Source: a virus
Taxonomy: Duplodnaviria; Caudoviricetes
Length of the DNA stretch: 34,003 nt
Direction: 5' to 3' (one strand)
Virus record (IMG/VR): IMGVR_UViG_3300037419_001409
Span: 1 to 34,003 of that record
Translations under genes and position numbers: made by a program
Notes under the pieces: model-generated
The model's input: only the letters and a program-made list of their open reading frames with translations
Told to the model about the DNA's origin: nothing
Databases searched by the model: none
Part shown: positions 252-15,744 of the stretch, in pieces
Layout of the letters: each line of letters opens with the position of its first letter
Numbering within the stretch: position 1 is the stretch's first letter

Positions 252-502
252 TGCCCGCCTTCGAAATTCGTCCCGTGATGGGCAGCGACTGCCTCGAAAT
301 CATGGCCGATGGGGTGCGCGCGGCCATCATATACCCGCCCGAAGATGACGGCCGGGTCGCGATCTACCCGTGGCCACGCACCTACCAGACCCTGACCTTT
401 GAGGGCCTGCCCTCCCCGCTGCGCCCCGAATGGGACTGGCATCCGTCGCTGGAGAGTGTGCGGGCCATGCTCGGCATCGAAGAGGAGAGGCAGGCAGCAT
501 GA
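251..502 (+). CDS. Hypothetical phage protein
   Basis: GGAGG upstream; overlapping stop/start at both ends. Confidence 0.65.
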   Translation: MPAFEIRPVMGSDCLEIMADGVRAAIIYPPEDDGRVAIYPWPRTYQTLTFEGLPSPLRPEWDWHPSLESVRAMLGIEEERQAA

Positions 503-711
503 GCTACCTTCTGCGACCCGAGATCCATTTCGAAATCACGATCTGGCCGCCTCGTATCAGCTACCGGCGCGGCGTCTGGCATGCCTTCGGCCGCAGAAGC
601 CGGCGGCTCAAGTACCTGCCGATCCCGCTCAAGAGCGACATCCACCTTGGTTGGGCAACGACCAGGGATGGAGCACGCAATCTCGGCGAGGGCTGGGGGG
701 AGCGGCCATGA
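499..711 (+). CDS. Small hypothetical protein, paralog of 3286..3516
   Basis: ATGA overlap start (MSYLLRPE...); about two-thirds identical to 3286..3516 by manual alignment. Confidence 0.7.
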   Translation: MSYLLRPEIHFEITIWPPRISYRRGVWHAFGRRSRRLKYLPIPLKSDIHLGWATTRDGARNLGEGWGERP

Positions 712-2423: not shown

Positions 2424-3286
2424 GAACGCTGAACAACGCCTGGACGGAAGCCGAAGACGCCCTGCTCAAGGCGAACTATCACCGGGGCTCTCGCTGGTGC
2501 TGTGACCGCCTGCCTGGACGCACACAGTCGGCCGTCAAGAAACGGGCTGCCGTCATCGGTGCCGCTCGGCCCGTCGCTGACGTGCATCACGAGTGGACGC
2601 CTCTGCTCGATGCACAGATCCGCCGCGCGTACCAAGAGGGCTTCGGTGCCCCCGCTGCCCTGGCTCGCAGCACGGGCATTCCGCCGAATTGCTTGAGCCG
2701 TCGCGCCGCTGCGCTGGGCCTCGGGGCTCGGCCCGTTCCCTTCAGCGCCGAGGAAGCGGAGTTTGTTGAGCGCCACCTTCATCTCAGCCGGAACCAGATC
2801 TCAAAGCTGATGGCGAAGCGCGGCTGGCATCGCTCAAAGCAGGCCATCCAGCGCTTTCTGCATGCACGCGGGATCGGGGGGATCGGCGACTACCTGTCCA
2901 TCCCGACGTTGGCCGCCTGCCTGGGCATGTCAGAGTTCTCGATACGGGGCAGCATCGCTCGCGGCGAACTGCTGGTGGAGCGGTCGGAAGGCGAGGAAGG
3001 GCGGATCGTCATCGCTCAGCCGGAAGTCGCGAGATGGATCATCCGGCACCCGCATCGGATCGACCTGCGCCGGGCGGAAGGCCCTTGGCTGATCGACCTC
3101 CTGGCTCGGTACGGCTCGCTCGGGCTGATCGATGAACGGGATCAGTGGCGTCGCATCCTGGCCCTGCACGAACTCGGCAAGAGCAACCAGGAGATCGCGG
3201 CCATTCTGGAGACGAAACCCAACATCGTCGCGAGCACGCTGTCTCAACGGCGGTCCAAGTCAGGCCAGCAAGAGGAGGCTGCGTGA
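2420..3286 (+). CDS. Multi-HTH DNA-binding protein with Myb/SANT-like repeats
   Basis: Repeats WTEAEDALL..PGRTQSAVKKRA, WTPLLDAQI, FSAEEAEFV; then LSIPTLAACLGMSE HTH and C-terminal GKSNQEIAAILE HTH. Confidence 0.7.
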   Translation: MRTLNNAWTEAEDALLKANYHRGSRWCCDRLPGRTQSAVKKRAAVIGAARPVADVHHEWTPLLDAQIRRAYQEGFGAPAALARSTGIPPNCLSRRAAALGLGARPVPFSAEEAEFVERHLHLSRNQISKLMAKRGWHRSKQAIQRFLHARGIGGIGDYLSIPTLAACLGMSEFSIRGSIARGELLVERSEGEEGRIVIAQPEVARWIIRHPHRIDLRRAEGPWLIDLLARYGSLGLIDERDQWRRILALHELGKSNQEIAAILETKPNIVASTLSQRRSKSGQQEEAA

Positions 3287-3516
3287 TGTACACCCTGAGA
3301 CCTGAGCCTTATCTTGAAGTGTCGATCTGGCCGCCCAAGATTATCTGCCGGCGCACCGTCTGGCACGCCTTCGGTCGCACCAGCCGATGGCTCAAGTACC
3401 TGCCATTCCCTCTCGCAAGTGACGTGTTCCTCGGCCGCGCGACGACCTTCGACGGCGCACGCAATCTCGGCAGAGGGTGGGATGAGCGGAACAAGCAGGA
3501 GGCGCCCCATGCCTGA
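3286..3516 (+). CDS. Small hypothetical protein, paralog of 499..711
   Basis: TGATG overlap; shares IWPP..RR.VWHAFGR.SR.LKYLP and DGARNLG.GW with 499..711. Confidence 0.7.
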   Translation: MYTLRPEPYLEVSIWPPKIICRRTVWHAFGRTSRWLKYLPFPLASDVFLGRATTFDGARNLGRGWDERNKQEAPHA

Positions 3517-4426: not shown

Positions 4427-4865
4427 GGTTTCTGTTCCCCGGTTGGATGAAATCGCGAATGACACGCCGTTGCGCCTTGAAGTGGCGGCTGCCCTCGCTT
4501 TTCCTGGCGGCGGCATGACGGTTAGCGGCCTCCGCAAGGAAGCCGCGCGCGGGCGCCTTGTCATCGAGCGCATCGCCGGCAGAGATTACACCACGTTGGC
4601 CGCCATAGCGAAGATGAGGGGGCAATGCCGCGTCCAGCCAAAGGGGCTCGTCTCTATCTCGTACCAGCCCGCCGAGACAAAGCTGGCCGCGTCACCCGAG
4701 CCGCCCGATGGGTCATCCGCGACGGCGACCGCATGCACCCCACAGGATGCGCTGCAAGCGAAGTTGCAGAAGCTCATCAAGCCTTCGCCAACTACCTCCG
4801 CGAAGCGCACCGGCCGACGCGCGGGCAACGTGGTATCGCTGAAATCCCGGTCGCAGATGTCCTGA
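4419..4865 (+). CDS. xis: Excisionase-like protein (start uncertain)
   Basis: DTPLRLEVAAALAFPGGGMTVSGLRKEAARGRLVIERIAGRDYTTLAAI, typical of rhizobial excisionases; directly upstream of and overlapping int. Confidence 0.8.
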   Translation: MSKVSVPRLDEIANDTPLRLEVAAALAFPGGGMTVSGLRKEAARGRLVIERIAGRDYTTLAAIAKMRGQCRVQPKGLVSISYQPAETKLAASPEPPDGSSATATACTPQDALQAKLQKLIKPSPTTSAKRTGRRAGNVVSLKSRSQMS

Positions 4866-5773
4866 ACATCTACGCCGACGATATCGTCTCACGGGATCCC
4901 GATGCCTCGCGCATCGCCCGGCGCATCGCCCGGCTGGCGGCATGGTGGGGCAATCGCACGCTCGCCCAGGTGACGGGCGCGACGTGCCGAGCCTATGCCG
5001 CATCAAGGCCGGGCCCAGGCGGCGCGCGGCGCGATCTGCAAGACCTGTCGGCCGCCATCGGACACCACCACCGCGAGGGCTACCATCGCGAGGAGATCAA
5101 GGTCTGGCTGCCGCCGAAGGGCAATGCCCGCGAGCGCTGGCTGACGCGATCCGAAGTCGCCAAGCTGGTGTGGACGTGCTGGCGGGCCCGTGAGGGTGGC
5201 GACCGGGAGGGCGAGGGCCGCTACACCATGCGCCACATCGCCCGGTTCATCCTCTTGGCCTACTCGACGGCGAGCCGGCCGGGCGCCGTGCTCACGGCGA
5301 GCTGGGAGGCGGCGTCGGGCCGGTCCTACCTCGACCTCGACCGGGGCATGTTCTACCGGCTGAAGGACGGTGGGCGGATCACCAACAAGCGCCAGCCGCC
5401 CGTGCCGCTGACCGACAAGATGCTTGCCCATCTGCGCCGCTGGCGTCGGCTTGGCGGATCCTACGCGGTGGAGTTCCGCGGCAAGCCAGTCGCCCGCATC
5501 AAAGTCGGGTTCGCCAGCGCCGTGAAGCTGGCCGGGCTCGGGGCTGGCGTGTCGCCGCACACGCTTCGGCATTCGGCCGTGACGCACATGCTGCTCGATG
5601 GCGTCGACCCGTGGCAGGCAGCCGGTTACGCGGGCATGAGCGAGGCCGTGATGAAACTGCACTATGCCCACCACCACCCCGATCACATGAGTGGCGCGAA
5701 AGCCTCGATGAGTGGGCGCAAGCGTTGGGCGACAGAAACGCTACAGATTGGCGTGAACCGAGCGCGAACATGA
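4625..5773 (+). CDS. int: Tyrosine recombinase / phage integrase
   Basis: Catalytic motifs TASR, TNKR, PHTLRHS and HYAHH; RERWLTRSE; followed by attP. Confidence 0.95.
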   Translation: MPRPAKGARLYLVPARRDKAGRVTRAARWVIRDGDRMHPTGCAASEVAEAHQAFANYLREAHRPTRGQRGIAEIPVADVLNIYADDIVSRDPDASRIARRIARLAAWWGNRTLAQVTGATCRAYAASRPGPGGARRDLQDLSAAIGHHHREGYHREEIKVWLPPKGNARERWLTRSEVAKLVWTCWRAREGGDREGEGRYTMRHIARFILLAYSTASRPGAVLTASWEAASGRSYLDLDRGMFYRLKDGGRITNKRQPPVPLTDKMLAHLRRWRRLGGSYAVEFRGKPVARIKVGFASAVKLAGLGAGVSPHTLRHSAVTHMLLDGVDPWQAAGYAGMSEAVMKLHYAHHHPDHMSGAKASMSGRKRWATETLQIGVNRART

Positions 5774-5947
5774 GCGCACAAACGCGAACGGTTGTCGTTG
5801 ATTTTATTGGCTTTTTCAGTAAAGCCGGACGTTATGAGCGGCCGGCTCTAACCATTGAGCTACGGGCCCGAAGCTTTATGCTTCAGTAGCTTAGCGCTGA
5901 TGCTGCCGGCCGGCGACAGGCTGGACGACAGAAACGGCGACAGAAAC
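5729..5947. other. attP: core AGCCGGACG-TTATGAG-CGGCCGGCT (5823-5847) flanked by arm-type repeats (G/A)CGACAGAAAC
   Basis: Inverted core arms around a 7-bp overlap equal to the tRNA anticodon loop. Arm repeats at 5729 and 5740 (degenerate) on the left, and 5913 (partial), 5925 and 5937 (12-bp period) on the right. Confidence 0.85.
5830..5869 (-). pseudogene. 5' half of tRNA(CAU), probably Ile2 (often annotated Met); attP identity block, not a complete tRNA
   Basis: Minus strand reads GGGCCCGTAGCTCAATGGTTAGAGCCGGCCGCTCATAACG (acceptor 5' strand, D arm, anticodon loop CTCATAA); no T arm or CCA follows. Confidence 0.85.
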
Positions 5948-5954
5948 CGCCTTT

Positions 5955-5983
5955 TGAGTACCTGCCGCCGAGCCATGCATCAA
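5955..5983 (-). promoter_or_regulatory. Putative sigma70 promoter pointing into the tRNA half
   Basis: Minus strand TTGATG-N17-TACTCA, about 85 bp upstream of the tRNA 5' end. Confidence 0.4.
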
Positions 5984-7591: not shown

Positions 7592-7653
7592 GGCGCTGTC
7601 TCCTCCGTTCAAACGAGCGTTCAACCGGATGAAACACCCCGCAGGAGGGAACG

Positions 7654-11767: not shown

Positions 11768-11814
11768 ACATGGCGGAGACGGTAGAACTCGAACGGTTTA
11801 GCAAGGGGAATACA

Positions 11815-12030
11815 ATGAGCGACGAAGGAACCGAGTGGTTTTGGCGCATCGTTGACGCCAACGGCTTAGGCGACGTCCCGAGCGACGAGGGGCCAGCCCT
11901 TCGGCTGCTGTGCGAGCGTGCGGCCAAGGCGCAATGGCTTAAGGCCGAGAACGCGCGGCTACAGGCCGAGCTAGAGACAGCCCGGCACACCATCGCGGCA
12001 ATGGCTGGCCACATCAACGCCCCCGCCTGA
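11815..12030 (+). CDS. Small hypothetical protein (alternative in-frame start at 11770)
   Basis: AAGGGG RBS; coiled-coil LKAENARLQAELE. Confidence 0.65.
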   Translation: MSDEGTEWFWRIVDANGLGDVPSDEGPALRLLCERAAKAQWLKAENARLQAELETARHTIAAMAGHINAPA

Positions 12031-12632
12031 TGGCGGATGGGATTACGGCCATTTCGGCAAGTAATTCAAGAGCGGGGACTGTTATGAAGATTGAGACGGC
12101 AGGATTGCTAACAATAGCCGACGCATTGGAGCAAGAAGGAAGGCGTCTCGCTGCCGGGTGTATTCGAGAGGCCGCAGCCGAAATCTCCGCCCTACGTGCC
12201 GCGCAAGTTGGGGCCGGTGATGGGGCCGAGAATGAGCCGGGCGCCACGCTCGACGGGCGACTGAAAGCCGCCGGCATGTTTACGGTCACGGAGATGATGG
12301 GACAAACGCCCCTTAGCCGGTGGCAGGTTCATGCCGGAATGAGCGGCCTTGAAGCCTTCGGGGAATGGCTCGACCGCAAGACCGCGGAATACACCCGCAT
12401 GCGGGCCGGCTATGAACTCGGCGACAAGGACAAGTCAGACGAGCTTTACGAGTGGGTGCTCGCCCATTCTGCCGCCTTCGCCACCATCCGCGCGAACTTC
12501 ATAGCGGCAAGGGATCGCCAAGCGGCGGTCAATGTTGGGGCCCGAGTTGGGGCCGGCGAGGATCAAGCAACGCCGTCCGCATGATACTTCAACGGGTTAG
12601 CGAACATTTGCGAATGTAGCAATCTCCGCCAT
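12030..12632. mobile_element. Putative non-autonomous attL-cargo-attR mini-element 1
   Basis: Core at 12030; arm pairs at 12207/12219 and 12534/12546; TGATACTTCAA box at 12582; core right arm at 12625. Confidence 0.55.
12084..12584 (+). CDS. Hypothetical phage protein (alternative start at 12030)
   Basis: ORF spans mini-element 1; RLKAAGM.TV.EMM...PL..W..HAGM domain. Confidence 0.7.
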   Translation: MKIETAGLLTIADALEQEGRRLAAGCIREAAAEISALRAAQVGAGDGAENEPGATLDGRLKAAGMFTVTEMMGQTPLSRWQVHAGMSGLEAFGEWLDRKTAEYTRMRAGYELGDKDKSDELYEWVLAHSAAFATIRANFIAARDRQAAVNVGARVGAGEDQATPSA

Positions 12633-12653
12633 ACCGAAGGCCAGGGGTTAACG

Positions 12654-12905
12654 ATGACCGGCACAGCTCAGATCAGCCTCGAAACGGGGCGCAAGTTTCC
12701 ATACGATCAAGGCGAGCGTCGCCGGCCACCGAAGGCGAAGGATTGGGCAGAGGCCGCCGCCCGTGGCGTGCTGGCCGATCTCTGCGACCGCCGCGGGATC
12801 AAGTGGGCGCTGCAAGACGACGAGATCACCGACGACGTGCGCCGGGAGATCGTCGCCTCGCTCGCTGCAATCATCCGCCTCGCACACGAACAGGCGTCGG
12901 CCTGA
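12654..12905 (+). CDS. Conserved small phage protein (AARGVLADLCDRRGIKW family)
   Basis: ORF between two family-2 sites; AGGGG RBS. Confidence 0.75.
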   Translation: MTGTAQISLETGRKFPYDQGERRRPPKAKDWAEAAARGVLADLCDRRGIKWALQDDEITDDVRREIVASLAAIIRLAHEQASA

Positions 12906-12907
12906 GT

Positions 12908-13422
12908 ATGGCGGACGGGGCCACGGAAATTTCGGAAGGTATTGCGATGAGCGAAACAGTAATCACGGACGTGCTTCCGGGTCTTCGTCAGCTTCACGAG
13001 GAATTGCTCGCCGAAGGAAAACTAGAGCGCAGCGTAGACGTTATGTTCGCCATCCTCGAACTTGAGCGACTGTCCGCCAAACCCGTTGGGGTGAATGTTG
13101 GGGCGGGATGGAGGCCAATTGAGACGGCGCCGAAGGATGGCAGCCGCATTCTGATCTTCAACCCGAAGAGTGACCGCCATCCTGTTTGCGAGGTGGCATG
13201 GGCTTACGTCTATGAGGGCGGCCCCGGCTACTGGTCCACGCCTCACGGCATCAGCGGTCGAGGCTATACGATCTTACCGGAAGCTCCAACGCATTGGATG
13301 CCGCTTCCCGAACCGCCATCAGATGTTGGGGTAAATGTTGGGGTAAGCGCCCCATCAGTAGAGCCCCCGCCTGATACTTCAAAGGCTTAGGGCATAGTTT
13401 GCTCGGACGGGGCCACAGACAT
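12908..13422. mobile_element. Putative non-autonomous attL-cargo-attR mini-element 2
   Basis: Both ends share CGGACGGGGCCAC; arm pairs at 13085/13097 and 13325/13337; TGATACTTCAA box at 13372. Confidence 0.65.
12947..13390 (+). CDS. DUF551-domain fusion protein (alternative start at 12908)
   Basis: WRPIETAPKDGSRIL...PTHWMPLPEPP domain, flanked on both sides by VGVNVG. Confidence 0.8.
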   Translation: MSETVITDVLPGLRQLHEELLAEGKLERSVDVMFAILELERLSAKPVGVNVGAGWRPIETAPKDGSRILIFNPKSDRHPVCEVAWAYVYEGGPGYWSTPHGISGRGYTILPEAPTHWMPLPEPPSDVGVNVGVSAPSVEPPPDTSKA

Positions 13423-13442
13423 CAGGGAGATGAGGAAGGTCG

Positions 13443-14048
13443 ATGGACGCGGTAACGCCTAAGAAGTGGACCAAGCCGACAACAAGGCCAGAGACCGCGT
13501 CCGCTCGCTTCCATGCGAAGTGGATCGGTGAGCCCAATAGTGGCTGTTGGCTTTGGCTCGGCGGCCTGTCTGCTAACAAGTATGGCTCAATGCATGATGG
13601 GGAGCGGATGTGTGGCGCGCATCACTTCTCGTATCGGCTCCATCACGGGCTAATCCCGAAGGGCATGTTCGTTTGCCACTCCTGTGACACGCCAATTTGC
13701 GTGAACCCGGATCACCTGTTCCTCGACACACCATGCGGGAACCAAGCTGACATGGTGAAGAAGGGGCGAGCACGCGCGGGCAATCCAGAATGGTGGCATT
13801 CGGAGGAGCTGCGGAAGAAGGTTCAGCAGGACCCGCGCCCTTACCGCGTGATCGCTGAAGAGTACGGCTTGAAGTTCAACACGGTGAAGGCATTCAAGTC
13901 GGCCGAACGTAAGGGCGATTGGCGCCGGAACCTACGCAGCATCCGGATCGAGACTGCCCGGCTGCGAGCGGCGCTTCAGCAGATCGCTGGCATGACGCAG
14001 GCGGACGAGATGGCCGAGGTGGCCAAGCGCGCGCTGAGCGGCGACTAG
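13443..14048 (+). CDS. HNH endonuclease (HNH_3-like) with C-terminal HTH
   Basis: SGCWLWLG...YG...AHHFSY..HHG.IP.GMFVCHSCDTPICVNPDHL......N.ADMVKKGR. Confidence 0.9.
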   Translation: MDAVTPKKWTKPTTRPETASARFHAKWIGEPNSGCWLWLGGLSANKYGSMHDGERMCGAHHFSYRLHHGLIPKGMFVCHSCDTPICVNPDHLFLDTPCGNQADMVKKGRARAGNPEWWHSEELRKKVQQDPRPYRVIAEEYGLKFNTVKAFKSAERKGDWRRNLRSIRIETARLRAALQQIAGMTQADEMAEVAKRALSGD

Positions 14049-14082
14049 TGGCGGACAGGGGAGAACCCATACCAGGGAGAGA

Positions 14083-14334
14083 ATGATGCAAACGGAGCTT
14101 AAGCCGGCGCAGGTCGATGCCGCGTACCGGATGTTCTACGGCGAAGGCAAGAACCTCGGCGAGATCACGAAGGAACTCGGGTGCGGGATCTATGACCTGT
14201 CGCCCTGGCTCACGGCGCCAGCGCTGCGGATTGGGCGCGAGGCGCGAGAAGACGCCTCCGAACGGATCAAGATCCTTTGTGCGGAGATCAAGCGCCTAGA
14301 AGATGCAAACGACCGCCTGACCTCGCGGCCGTAA
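14083..14334 (+). CDS. Small HTH-like hypothetical protein
   Basis: GGGAGA RBS; EGKNLGEITKELGCGIYDLSPW. Confidence 0.65.
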   Translation: MMQTELKPAQVDAAYRMFYGEGKNLGEITKELGCGIYDLSPWLTAPALRIGREAREDASERIKILCAEIKRLEDANDRLTSRP

Positions 14335-14388
14335 GGGTATGGCGGACCGGGGCTCCGCCATGCGCCAAGCTAAGCAGTTGACGCGCAC

Positions 14389-14859: not shown

Positions 14860-15744
14860 ATGACCGACAGCCGAACCGGCATCGAGCGCACCAAAGACGC
14901 ATGGGCTGTCATCAGCCCGGAGCGATGCCTCTGGAACTACCCTTACACCAATGAGCTCGTCAGCAAGCGCGCGGGTGATCCAGCCAGGGGCGACTGGTAT
15001 CAGCAGGTCGGCGTACGACACCTCGCCGGCCGGCAGCCCGGCCGCGCTCTGTCAATCGGCTGCGGCATCGGATCGTGGGACCGCGCCTTCTACAAAGAGG
15101 GCTGGTTTCGCGAAGCCGTCTGCACCGACATCTCGGACGGCGCCGTTGCCACGGCGGCCTCTGTCGCGGAGGCTGAGGGCCTGCCGCTCCGCTACATCGC
15201 GGCGGACCTCAACAGGGGGCTGCCGGAGGGCGCGGAAGGCCCGTTCGATCTGATCTATGCGGTGGCCGCCCTGCACCACATCGACGCCCTGGAAAGTCTG
15301 CTGTCCGCCTGCCATGACCGCCTGACCGCGGACGGCCTGCTGATCTTTCAGGAGTATTGCGGGCCGTCCCGGTTTCAGTGGAAGCCGAAGACGCTTGCCC
15401 TGGCCAACGCCATCCTCGACCTGCTGCCGCCCGAGCTGAAAGGCCCCATCGAGCGGATCAAGCGCCCGCCCTATTCTGAGTTCGTCGAATACGACCCGAG
15501 CGAGAGCGTGCGCAGCGCCGAGATCATGGACCTGACCGCGATGTTTTTCGACATCGTCGAGGTTCAGGACATCGGTTTTACTCTGACGCAACCGCTGCTC
15601 AACCCGATCCTGCGCCACTTCGACGATGCCAATCCGCTGCACGGCGCCATCGCGAAGCTGATCTTCCTGTTTGAGGAGACGCTGATTGACGAGGGCGTGA
15701 TCGAGGCGGACACGAAGGTCGTGGTCGCGCGCAAGCGGAGGTAG
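14860..15744 (+). CDS. Class I SAM-dependent methyltransferase (moron)
   Basis: ALSIGCGIG motif I, TDISDGAV, ADLN, FDLIYAVAALHHI, L..DGLLIF.EY.GPSRFQW. Confidence 0.9.
   Translation: MTDSRTGIERTKDAWAVISPERCLWNYPYTNELVSKRAGDPARGDWYQQVGVRHLAGRQPGRALSIGCGIGSWDRAFYKEGWFREAVCTDISDGAVATAASVAEAEGLPLRYIAADLNRGLPEGAEGPFDLIYAVAALHHIDALESLLSACHDRLTADGLLIFQEYCGPSRFQWKPKTLALANAILDLLPPELKGPIERIKRPPYSEFVEYDPSESVRSAEIMDLTAMFFDIVEVQDIGFTLTQPLLNPILRHFDDANPLHGAIAKLIFLFEETLIDEGVIEADTKVVVARKRR

What the first reader, a model, noticed from the sequence alone, without database searches (positions are those of the whole stretch)
11770..14361. Second array: seven tRNA-Ser-related core sites at consecutive gene boundaries (family 2)
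Seen: ATGGCGGA-GACGGTA-GAACTCGA (11770), ATGGCGGA-TGGGATT-ACGGCCAT (12030), right arm TCCGCCAT (12625), ATGGCGGA-CGGGGCC-ACGGAAAT (12908), TGCTCGGA-CGGGGCC-ACAGACAT (13400), GTGGCGGA-CAGGGGA-GAACCCAT (14048), and a perfect ATGGCGGA-CCGGGGC-TCCGCCAT (14339). There is one per intergenic gap, mostly within 10 bp of a stop codon. The reverse complement of 11771-11794 (GTTCGAGTTCTACCGTCTCCGCCA) resembles the T-loop/acceptor/G-CCA end of a tRNA-Ser. Known: inverted arms around a 7-bp overlap are the core of lambda/P4-type integrases, and tRNA 3' ends are common targets. Inference: serial integration of small cassettes at a tRNA-Ser-like attB carried by the phage. The integrase in this window has a different core and arms, so the cognate enzyme would act in trans.
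Basis: partly seen in the sequence, partly recalled or inferred. Interest (0 to 1): 0.85.

Follow-up and report, generated by a model that had tools for sequence, protein, structure and literature searches.

The report
Address-coded integrase cassette array in phages
Small phage genes here are separated by likely docking sites of a DNA-swapping enzyme, each with its own 7-letter address, and some genes sit in mini-units present in one phage and cleanly absent from another, so unrelated phages likely trade genes slot by slot with an enzyme borrowed from host genomic islands.

Summary
All seven sites are real. They match the att cores of tRNA-Ser-targeting, arm-binding (P4-like) tyrosine integrases of Methylobacterium-like bacteria. 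Seven other phage contigs and one Methylobacterium genome carry such arrays. Arm-bearing units have the same 7-bp spacer at both ends (10 of 13; plain units 1 of 33). Arm-free 'empty' sites occur in other phages, one 22/23 identical to the predicted excision scar of window 12908-13422. Spacers keep one order across phages (136 concordant pairs, 1 discordant) while the genes between them differ. So this is not serial integration at one attB but a multi-address array, likely run in trans. Against: no exact cognate integrase found (chromosomal long arm 134 bp, not 177), no excision seen in contigs, and some gene bodies were swapped at start/stop codons, not at cores. Not found in 10 literature searches. 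One earlier scan note on other DNA saw the arm motif.

The parts
11770..11792 (+). Core site, spacer GACGGTA; tRNA-Ser(GCT) 3'-end-like, arm-free
11793..11804 (+). 12-bp remnant identical to the anticodon arm of an alphaproteobacterial tRNA-Ser(GCT) (reverse strand); the same leader follows two other spacers in other phages
11815..12030 (+). Plain slot gene, 71 aa, no Pfam/PHROG family; its 3' part recurs in three other slots elsewhere
12030..12052 (+). Core site, spacer TGGGATT; left junction of arm-bearing unit 1
12038..12624 (+). Arm-bearing unit 1; ends carry different spacers, read as a hybrid of a TGGGATT-type left end and an AGCGATC-type right end; ORF 12084-12584 (166 aa) runs through both arm pairs
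12207..12226 (+). Arm-type repeat pair (period 12), 177 bp after core 12030
12534..12553 (+). Arm-type repeat pair, 76 bp before core 12610
12588..12599 (+). IHF-like site (consensus recalled), same place as in chromosomal tRNA-Ser att sites
12610..12632 (+). Core site, spacer AGCAATC; right junction of unit 1
12654..12905 (+). Plain slot gene, 83 aa, no family
12908..12930 (+). Core site, spacer CGGGGCC; left junction (attL-like) of arm-bearing unit 2
12916..13414 (+). Arm-bearing unit 2 with the same spacer at both ends; ORF 12947-13390 (147 aa, DUF551 between the arm pairs); matching empty site in L280
13085..13104 (+). Arm-type repeat pair, 177 bp after core 12908
13325..13344 (+). Arm-type repeat pair, 75 bp before core 13400; identical (20 of 20) to the pair in front of the P4-like integrase gene of L027 and L232
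13378..13389 (+). IHF-like site (consensus recalled)
13400..13422 (+). Core site, spacer CGGGGCC; right junction (attR-like) of unit 2
13443..14048 (+). Plain slot gene, HNH endonuclease (201 aa); homologue in the L023 array
14048..14070 (+). Core site, spacer CAGGGGA, arm-free
14083..14334 (+). Plain slot gene, 83 aa, no family
14339..14361 (+). Core site with perfect inverted halves, spacer CCGGGGC, arm-free; last site of the array
4625..5773 (+). The window's own tyrosine integrase; not of the P4-like family and not the likely cognate enzyme

Best explanation
The gene junctions match the attachment cores of a tRNA-Ser-targeting, P4-like tyrosine integrase, and the two arm-bearing genes are likely integrase-less mini-elements that such an enzyme, likely supplied in trans by a host island or prophage, would cut out and insert at the site with their own 7-bp spacer. 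Shown: core, arm pair, IHF-like site and short-arm spacing are those of chromosomal tRNA-Ser att sites; arm-bearing units carry duplicated spacers; arm-free versions of the same sites exist in other phages; spacer order is shared while genes differ. Inferred: each unit excises as a 0.4-0.6 kb circle whose attP arms lie inside its own ORF; because tyrosine integrases need identical spacers, the different spacers act as addresses that keep neighbouring sites from deleting each other and let two phage genomes in one cell cross over only at like sites, which preserves order while slot contents change. Also inferred: phage homologous recombination adds a second layer, swapping cargo domains in frame at the arm repeats and gene bodies at start and stop codons.
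For: Only 4 period-12 GTTGGGG pairs exist in the 34-kb window, all inside the two units. The arm+IHF pattern, which did not contain the core, hit 16 genome loci: 8 abut a tRNA-Ser 3' end, 1 tRNA-Glu, 2 an att-like core, 1 an array, 4 nothing relevant; arm-to-core 74-76 bp in 11 of 11, as in the units. In two genomes the same spacer marks both a tRNA-Ser end with short arm and a P4-like integrase end with long arm (L015/L027, L012/L025). 14 of 29 Methylobacterium integrase loci show core plus arm pair, 5 with right half TCCGCCAT; 9 of 29 abut tRNA-Ser; the 8 closest enzymes (75-90% identical) use six different spacers. 13 of 13 units have arms at 176-178 and 75-77 bp although the DNA between core and arm is mostly 21-61% identical and ORF starts and stops move by 15 and 70 bp. 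Same spacer at both ends in 10 of 13 units versus 1 of 33 other slots; 9 of 10 predicted scars have an arm-free counterpart at 19-22 of 23. Order 136:1; between-array agreement 127:5, 0 of 20000 shuffles. One 240-bp plain module is 96% identical from core to core in two phages with different neighbours. The M. oryzisoli array holds a P4-like integrase gene and is bounded by a tRNA-Ser(TGA)-type core. Spacer rule: PMC7736782 and PMC10111431, passages read.
Against: No integrase with the 177-bp long arm was found: chromosomal elements have 134-147 bp. None of the window's spacers equals a chromosomal att spacer seen here (nearest GACGGAG/GACGGTG, CAGGGAG). 0 of 9 virus records encode a relative of the P4-like enzyme. 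The integrase inside the L023 array has no close relative among 401 genomes (best 52-56%) and no matching second end. No joint at the exact excision points among the 15 of 19 joints shown in contigs of 3 runs. Empty and occupied sites were seen in different phages with different flanking genes, not as an isogenic pair. One gene (L269, L274, L280) sits in two different slots with different half-sites, so it was joined at start and stop codons, not at cores. 3 of 13 units have unlike spacers. The arrays share ancestry, so the order statistic does not count independent events; site lists were picked by hand with a matrix.
Confidence: 0.7

Rival explanations
1. The sites are dead relics of old att sites that persist only as short homology patches ('linkers') for phage recombinases; no integrase acts on them now.
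For: Homology between units breaks at the arm repeats, read in frame as V-G-x-x-V-G; contigs of another soil run join at start codons, near stops and between arm pairs; gene bodies move with new half-sites; no cognate enzyme in 9 virus records.
Against: A homology patch needs no fixed 177/76-bp geometry across segments 21-61% identical, no IHF-like site and no spacer duplication confined to arm-bearing units; empty sites fall exactly on the spacer.
Confidence: 0.18
2. One reading: every gene arrived as a cassette by serial integration at one tRNA-Ser-like attB on the phage, as in tandem island accretion or an integron.
For: One site per gene gap; tRNA-Ser remnant at 11770-11804; accretion at att sites is known (PMC5704250, passages); the neighbouring family-1 array has near-constant spacers.
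Against: Six different spacers in seven sites; plain genes have like spacers at both ends in 1 of 33 slots and no arms.
Confidence: 0.06
3. The inverted repeats are operators or RNA hairpins that regulate the small genes; the likeness to att sites is incidental.
For: Sites overlap stop codons and ribosome-binding sites; one is a perfect palindrome.
Against: Match in sequence and register to att sites beside integrase genes and tRNA-Ser ends; most sites cannot pair well; no Rfam family; presence/absence at the spacer.
Confidence: 0.04

Closest known systems
tRNA-targeting P4-cluster integrase att sites (Smyshlyaev et al. 2021, PMC8138268, passages read; lambda/HK022 att anatomy, PMC4111918 and PMC7736782, passages read)
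   Same: Inverted core halves around a 7-bp overlap, arm-type repeats, IHF-like site, attP about 290 bp, tRNA 3'-end target; 20-bp arm pair identical to chromosomal ones.
   Different: Many cores with different overlaps in a row inside a phage; arms lie inside the cargo ORF; no integrase gene in the unit; long arm 177 instead of 134 bp.
CIMEs and site-specific accretion (Guedon et al. 2017 review, PMC5704250, passages read)
   Same: Elements that lost integrase but keep attL and attR, arranged in rows.
   Different: CIMEs are decayed chromosomal islands stacked at one target and carried in cis; these are single-gene 0.4-0.6 kb units with conserved geometry, at several non-interchangeable targets, in phage genomes.
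Helper-embedded PICIs (Tommasini et al. 2023, PMC10111431, passages read)
   Same: P4-related integrase clade whose elements insert into prophages, with a doubled motif at fixed spacing from the core and new sites evolving within one clade.
   Different: HE-PICIs are about 11-kb satellites with own integrase and replication genes that interrupt late genes; these units are integrase-less and sit between small genes.
Integron cassette arrays (recalled; PMC8618304 seen in listing only)
   Same: Co-oriented, promoter-poor single-gene units with a recombination site in every gap, stop codons overlapping the site.
   Different: No attC hairpin, no IntI; double-stranded lambda-type sites with arms; different spacers fix the order instead of allowing reshuffling.
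Engineered cassette exchange with heterospecific sites (RMCE; PMC4111918, PMC7736782, passages read; MultiSite Gateway recalled)
   Same: Sites of one recombinase made mutually incompatible by their spacer, so that segments are swapped slot-wise.
   Different: Here natural and only inferred from sequence.
Mosaic Ea22/exo-xis genes of lambdoid phages (PMC10834534, passages read)
   Same: Small mosaic phage proteins with common N-terminal helix and swapped domains.
   Different: The passages read name no att sites (0 occurrences of 'integrase', 'recombination', 'attachment' in its main text).

Membership tests
att site of arm-binding tRNA-Ser (P4-like) tyrosine integrase | Inverted core halves around a 7-bp overlap matching those beside such integrase genes | tested here: met
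att site of arm-binding tRNA-Ser (P4-like) tyrosine integrase | Arm-type repeat pair and IHF-like site at the family's short-arm spacing | tested here: met
   75-77 bp in 13 of 13 units, 74-76 bp in 11 of 11 chromosomal sites
att site of arm-binding tRNA-Ser (P4-like) tyrosine integrase | Long-arm spacing equal to a known integrase-bearing element | tested here: not met
   177 versus 134-147 bp; a separate subfamily or a 4-turn shift, untested
att site of arm-binding tRNA-Ser (P4-like) tyrosine integrase | Recombination by the enzyme | not testable with these tools
   needs an assay; contigs drop rare variants
CIME (integrase-less element with attL and attR) | attL and attR with one overlap, no integrase or transfer genes | tested here: met
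   10 of 13 units, incl. window 12908-13422
CIME (integrase-less element with attL and attR) | Tandem with an autonomous element at one chromosomal target that moves it in cis | tested here: not met
   0 of 9 virus records carry the enzyme; several targets; only L023 has a P4-like gene in the array
Integron | IntI gene and attC hairpins with constant crossover | tested here: not met
   window integrase is of another family; sites are 23-bp cores with variable spacers and arms; no dedicated attC model was run
HE-PICI / P4-like satellite | Own integrase, AlpA and primase; insertion in a late gene | tested here: not met
   units are 382-580 bp with one ORF, intergenic
tRNA gene | Cloverleaf | tested here: not met
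   only a damaged fragment at 11770-11804

The most novel reading that the evidence does not exclude
Unrelated phages of Methylobacterium-like hosts share a natural multi-address gene-exchange platform: an ordered row of sites for one borrowed integrase, made orthogonal by their 7-bp spacers, in which both the arm-bearing mini-elements and the plain genes are actively swapped slot by slot, and proteins are rebuilt in frame at the arm repeats: a natural counterpart of multi-site Gateway cloning and a second route, beside integrons, to cassette arrays.
Probability: 0.35. Interest if true: 0.92.

Novelty: new variant of a known kind. Interest (0 to 1): 0.78.

Why it matters
Phage mosaicism is usually put down to illegitimate or short-homology recombination (recalled). 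Here gene boundaries in phages with unrelated structural genes coincide with att cores of a defined integrase family, with empty and filled states and an address code. That makes a site-specific contribution to mosaicism directly testable with cloned 0.5-kb units. It also points to very small mobile elements whose attP arms double as coding sequence, and to a natural set of orthogonal att sites for one integrase that could serve as a multi-slot tool in alphaproteobacteria.

Tried and rejected
Relatives by DNA in named phage and plasmid collections: only HNH and one cargo domain matched. Family-wide pattern search with 1 mismatch in 401 genomes gave coding-sequence noise. Genus DNA search in 146 genomes gave terminators and cargo domains in prophages without att junctions, so the cargo itself is ordinary phage material. 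Metagenome scan: 3 hits, none an array. Viral scan with the L023 integrase: nothing. Palindromic-core scan: 120 loci returned of about 650; by matrix and by eye for 4 of them, one further small-gene array (L169), one P4-like att (L125), one att-like site (L112); the rest not followed; 17 loci, 5 arrays (2 already known), 12 dropped as chance matches without second sites or arms. Sequencing runs: no RNA holder listed; only contigs, no excision joint among those shown. tRNA gene or Rfam RNA: none. In one search one L227 site was read one base off and so left out of the order count; G001 was left out of the order test because its spacers are mostly different, and its order of GGGGGCA and GAAGGGT is opposite to that of GGGGGCA and CAAGGGT in L004. 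Not in print: searches of an open-access library; subscription journals and supplements were not seen.

Full report
Setting. The window is a 34-kb virus record, 61% complete by CheckV, with a tyrosine integrase at 4625-5773, small rightward genes to 14723, and leftward lysis and baseplate genes. The host is not given; the nearest cellular array is in Methylobacterium oryzisoli, so a Methylobacterium-like host is inferred.

Observation. A matrix trained on other contigs recovers six of them. Six of seven start within 10 bp of a stop codon. The site at 12625 is the right half of a full core at 12610.

The window holds four tandem GTTGGGG pairs of period 12 and no others. Two lie 177 bp after the cores at 12030 and 12908, two lie 76 and 75 bp before the cores at 12610 and 13400. 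Between the second pair and the core sits a site like the IHF consensus (recalled), at 12588 and 13378. The ORFs 12084-12584 and 12947-13390 run through both pairs, which are read as V-G-x-x-V-G. I call these arm-bearing units; the other genes are plain.

Which enzyme. A scan of 185,579 genomes for arm pair plus IHF-like site, without the core, gave 16 loci; 8 abut the CCA end of a tRNA-Ser gene, 1 a tRNA-Glu, 2 an att-like core, 1 is an array and 4 are unrelated. The core falls 74-76 bp from the arm pair in 11 of 11, as in the units. In M. goesingense and a Bosea genome the same spacer occurs at a tRNA-Ser end and at a second site followed by an arm pair and an integrase gene. The query enzyme of that search has Arm-DNA-bind_3, Phage_int_M and Phage_integrase domains; I call the family P4-like from recall and from PMC8138268 (passages). 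Among 29 Methylobacterium loci, 14 show core plus arm pair at 134-146 bp and 9 abut tRNA-Ser; the eight enzymes closest to L027 use six spacers, so one clade works with many overlaps. The site at 11770 is a damaged tRNA-Ser(GCT) fragment; damaged tRNA fragments in att sites are described for Ser genes in PMC10111431 (passage). The window's own integrase has no BLASTP match to these enzymes, and 0 of 9 virus records encode one (positive control G002), so the enzyme would come in trans. In M. oryzisoli a P4-like gene lies inside the array, the array begins at a tRNA-Ser(TGA)-type core, and another contig has a second P4-like gene beside the same core next to the tRNA; linkage across contigs is inferred.

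Other arrays. Seven more phage contigs of 20-123 kb carry the array. They share at most short stretches with the window's structural and lysis half. Several have neighbouring sample numbers and may come from one campaign. Across the nine arrays: 13 arm-bearing units, all with arms at 176-178 and 75-77 bp (search windows 170-185 and 70-82); 10 of 13 with one spacer at both ends, against 1 of 33 other slots. The DNA between core and left arm is 21-61% identical without gaps for most pairs (81% and 97% for two), and ORF starts lie 16, 28 or 31 bp after the core, so the fixed quantity is DNA distance, not peptide length.

Empty sites. L227 and L280 have the same cores with no arms; L269, G532 and G534 have some. 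Joining the outer halves of each matched unit in a script predicts a scar; 9 of 10 have an arm-free counterpart at 19-22 of 23 bases, and that of window 12908-13422 matches L280 at 22 of 23. Flanking genes differ, so these are states of a site, not isogenic pairs.

Order and content. Spacers run GACGGTA, TGGGATT, AGCGATC, CGGGGCC, CAGGGGA, CCGGGGC, CAAGGGT, GGGGGCA in eight phages, 136 concordant pairs to 1. Shared descent explains the order; what needs explaining is that it survives while content changes. The first slot holds five unrelated genes in six phages, and the window's four plain slots differ from every counterpart. One 240-bp module is 96% identical from core to core in two phages with other spacers and neighbours, and its trailer meets three spacers that all begin CA, which fits crossover at the spacer edge. 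But another gene appears in two slots with new half-sites, and homology among units breaks at the arm repeats. Contigs of an independent soil run join at 11817>12019, 13106>13319 and 14079>14337 (such joints come from other phages, and several have short sides). So a second, homology-driven layer is at work.

Mechanism. Tyrosine integrases accept any 7-bp overlap if both partners share it (PMC7736782, passage; PMC10111431). I infer that a unit leaves as a small circle and returns only to a site with its spacer; that unlike spacers protect the row from collapse; and that crossovers between two phage genomes at like sites exchange slots and keep order. Units with unlike ends (3 of 13, incl. 12038-12624) would be hybrids made by recombination between two units and would be fixed in place. 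How plain genes first came between cores is open; the tRNA fragment suggests capture of flanking DNA by imprecise excision (inference). Shown are the anatomy, the family match and the filled and empty states. Not shown are activity, the exact enzyme and integrase-driven exchange of plain genes.

Comparison and novelty. The sites work like P4-family att sites and the units like minimal CIMEs, but fail the long-arm test against known elements and the in-cis test for CIMEs; they are not integron cassettes or HE-PICIs. Ten searches of an open-access library found no description of such arrays. Verdict: new variant of a known kind, interest 0.78.

Noticed in passing
Likely att sites of another integrase.
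   Followed up: partly
window 5716-5960: Behind the window's own integrase: CGACAGAAAC repeats and, on the minus strand at about 5826-5868, a 5' half of a tRNA with anticodon CAT (form recalled); likely the phage's own att, unrelated to the array.
   Followed up: partly
window 7606-7625: CGTTCAA pair of period 12 upstream of a small gene; arm-like, a further att family.
   Followed up: no
L225 (G001:C43), array between about 12450 and 13950 in reverse orientation: A unit with spacer GGGGGCA at both ends and different arm-like repeats, and a third junction family beginning GTCAGGAAA.
   Followed up: partly
L169 (reverse strand 500-1850): Another phage small-gene row with a TGGCGGA/TCCGCCAT core between stop and start codon, an arm-like pair about 75 bp upstream inside the ORF, and junctions of other families; suggests the phenomenon is wider.
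   Followed up: partly
window 492-705 and 3276-3489: A 214-bp duplication at 72% identity covering a small gene.
   Followed up: no
window 14860-15744: Methyltransferase gene right of the array; L001 has a methyltransferase-like gene at the same place behind a homologous small gene.
   Followed up: no
L280 1500-3600: The array sits between a tyrosine recombinase gene and a tRNA-fragment att with arm-like repeats in a phage of quite different gene content.
   Followed up: no
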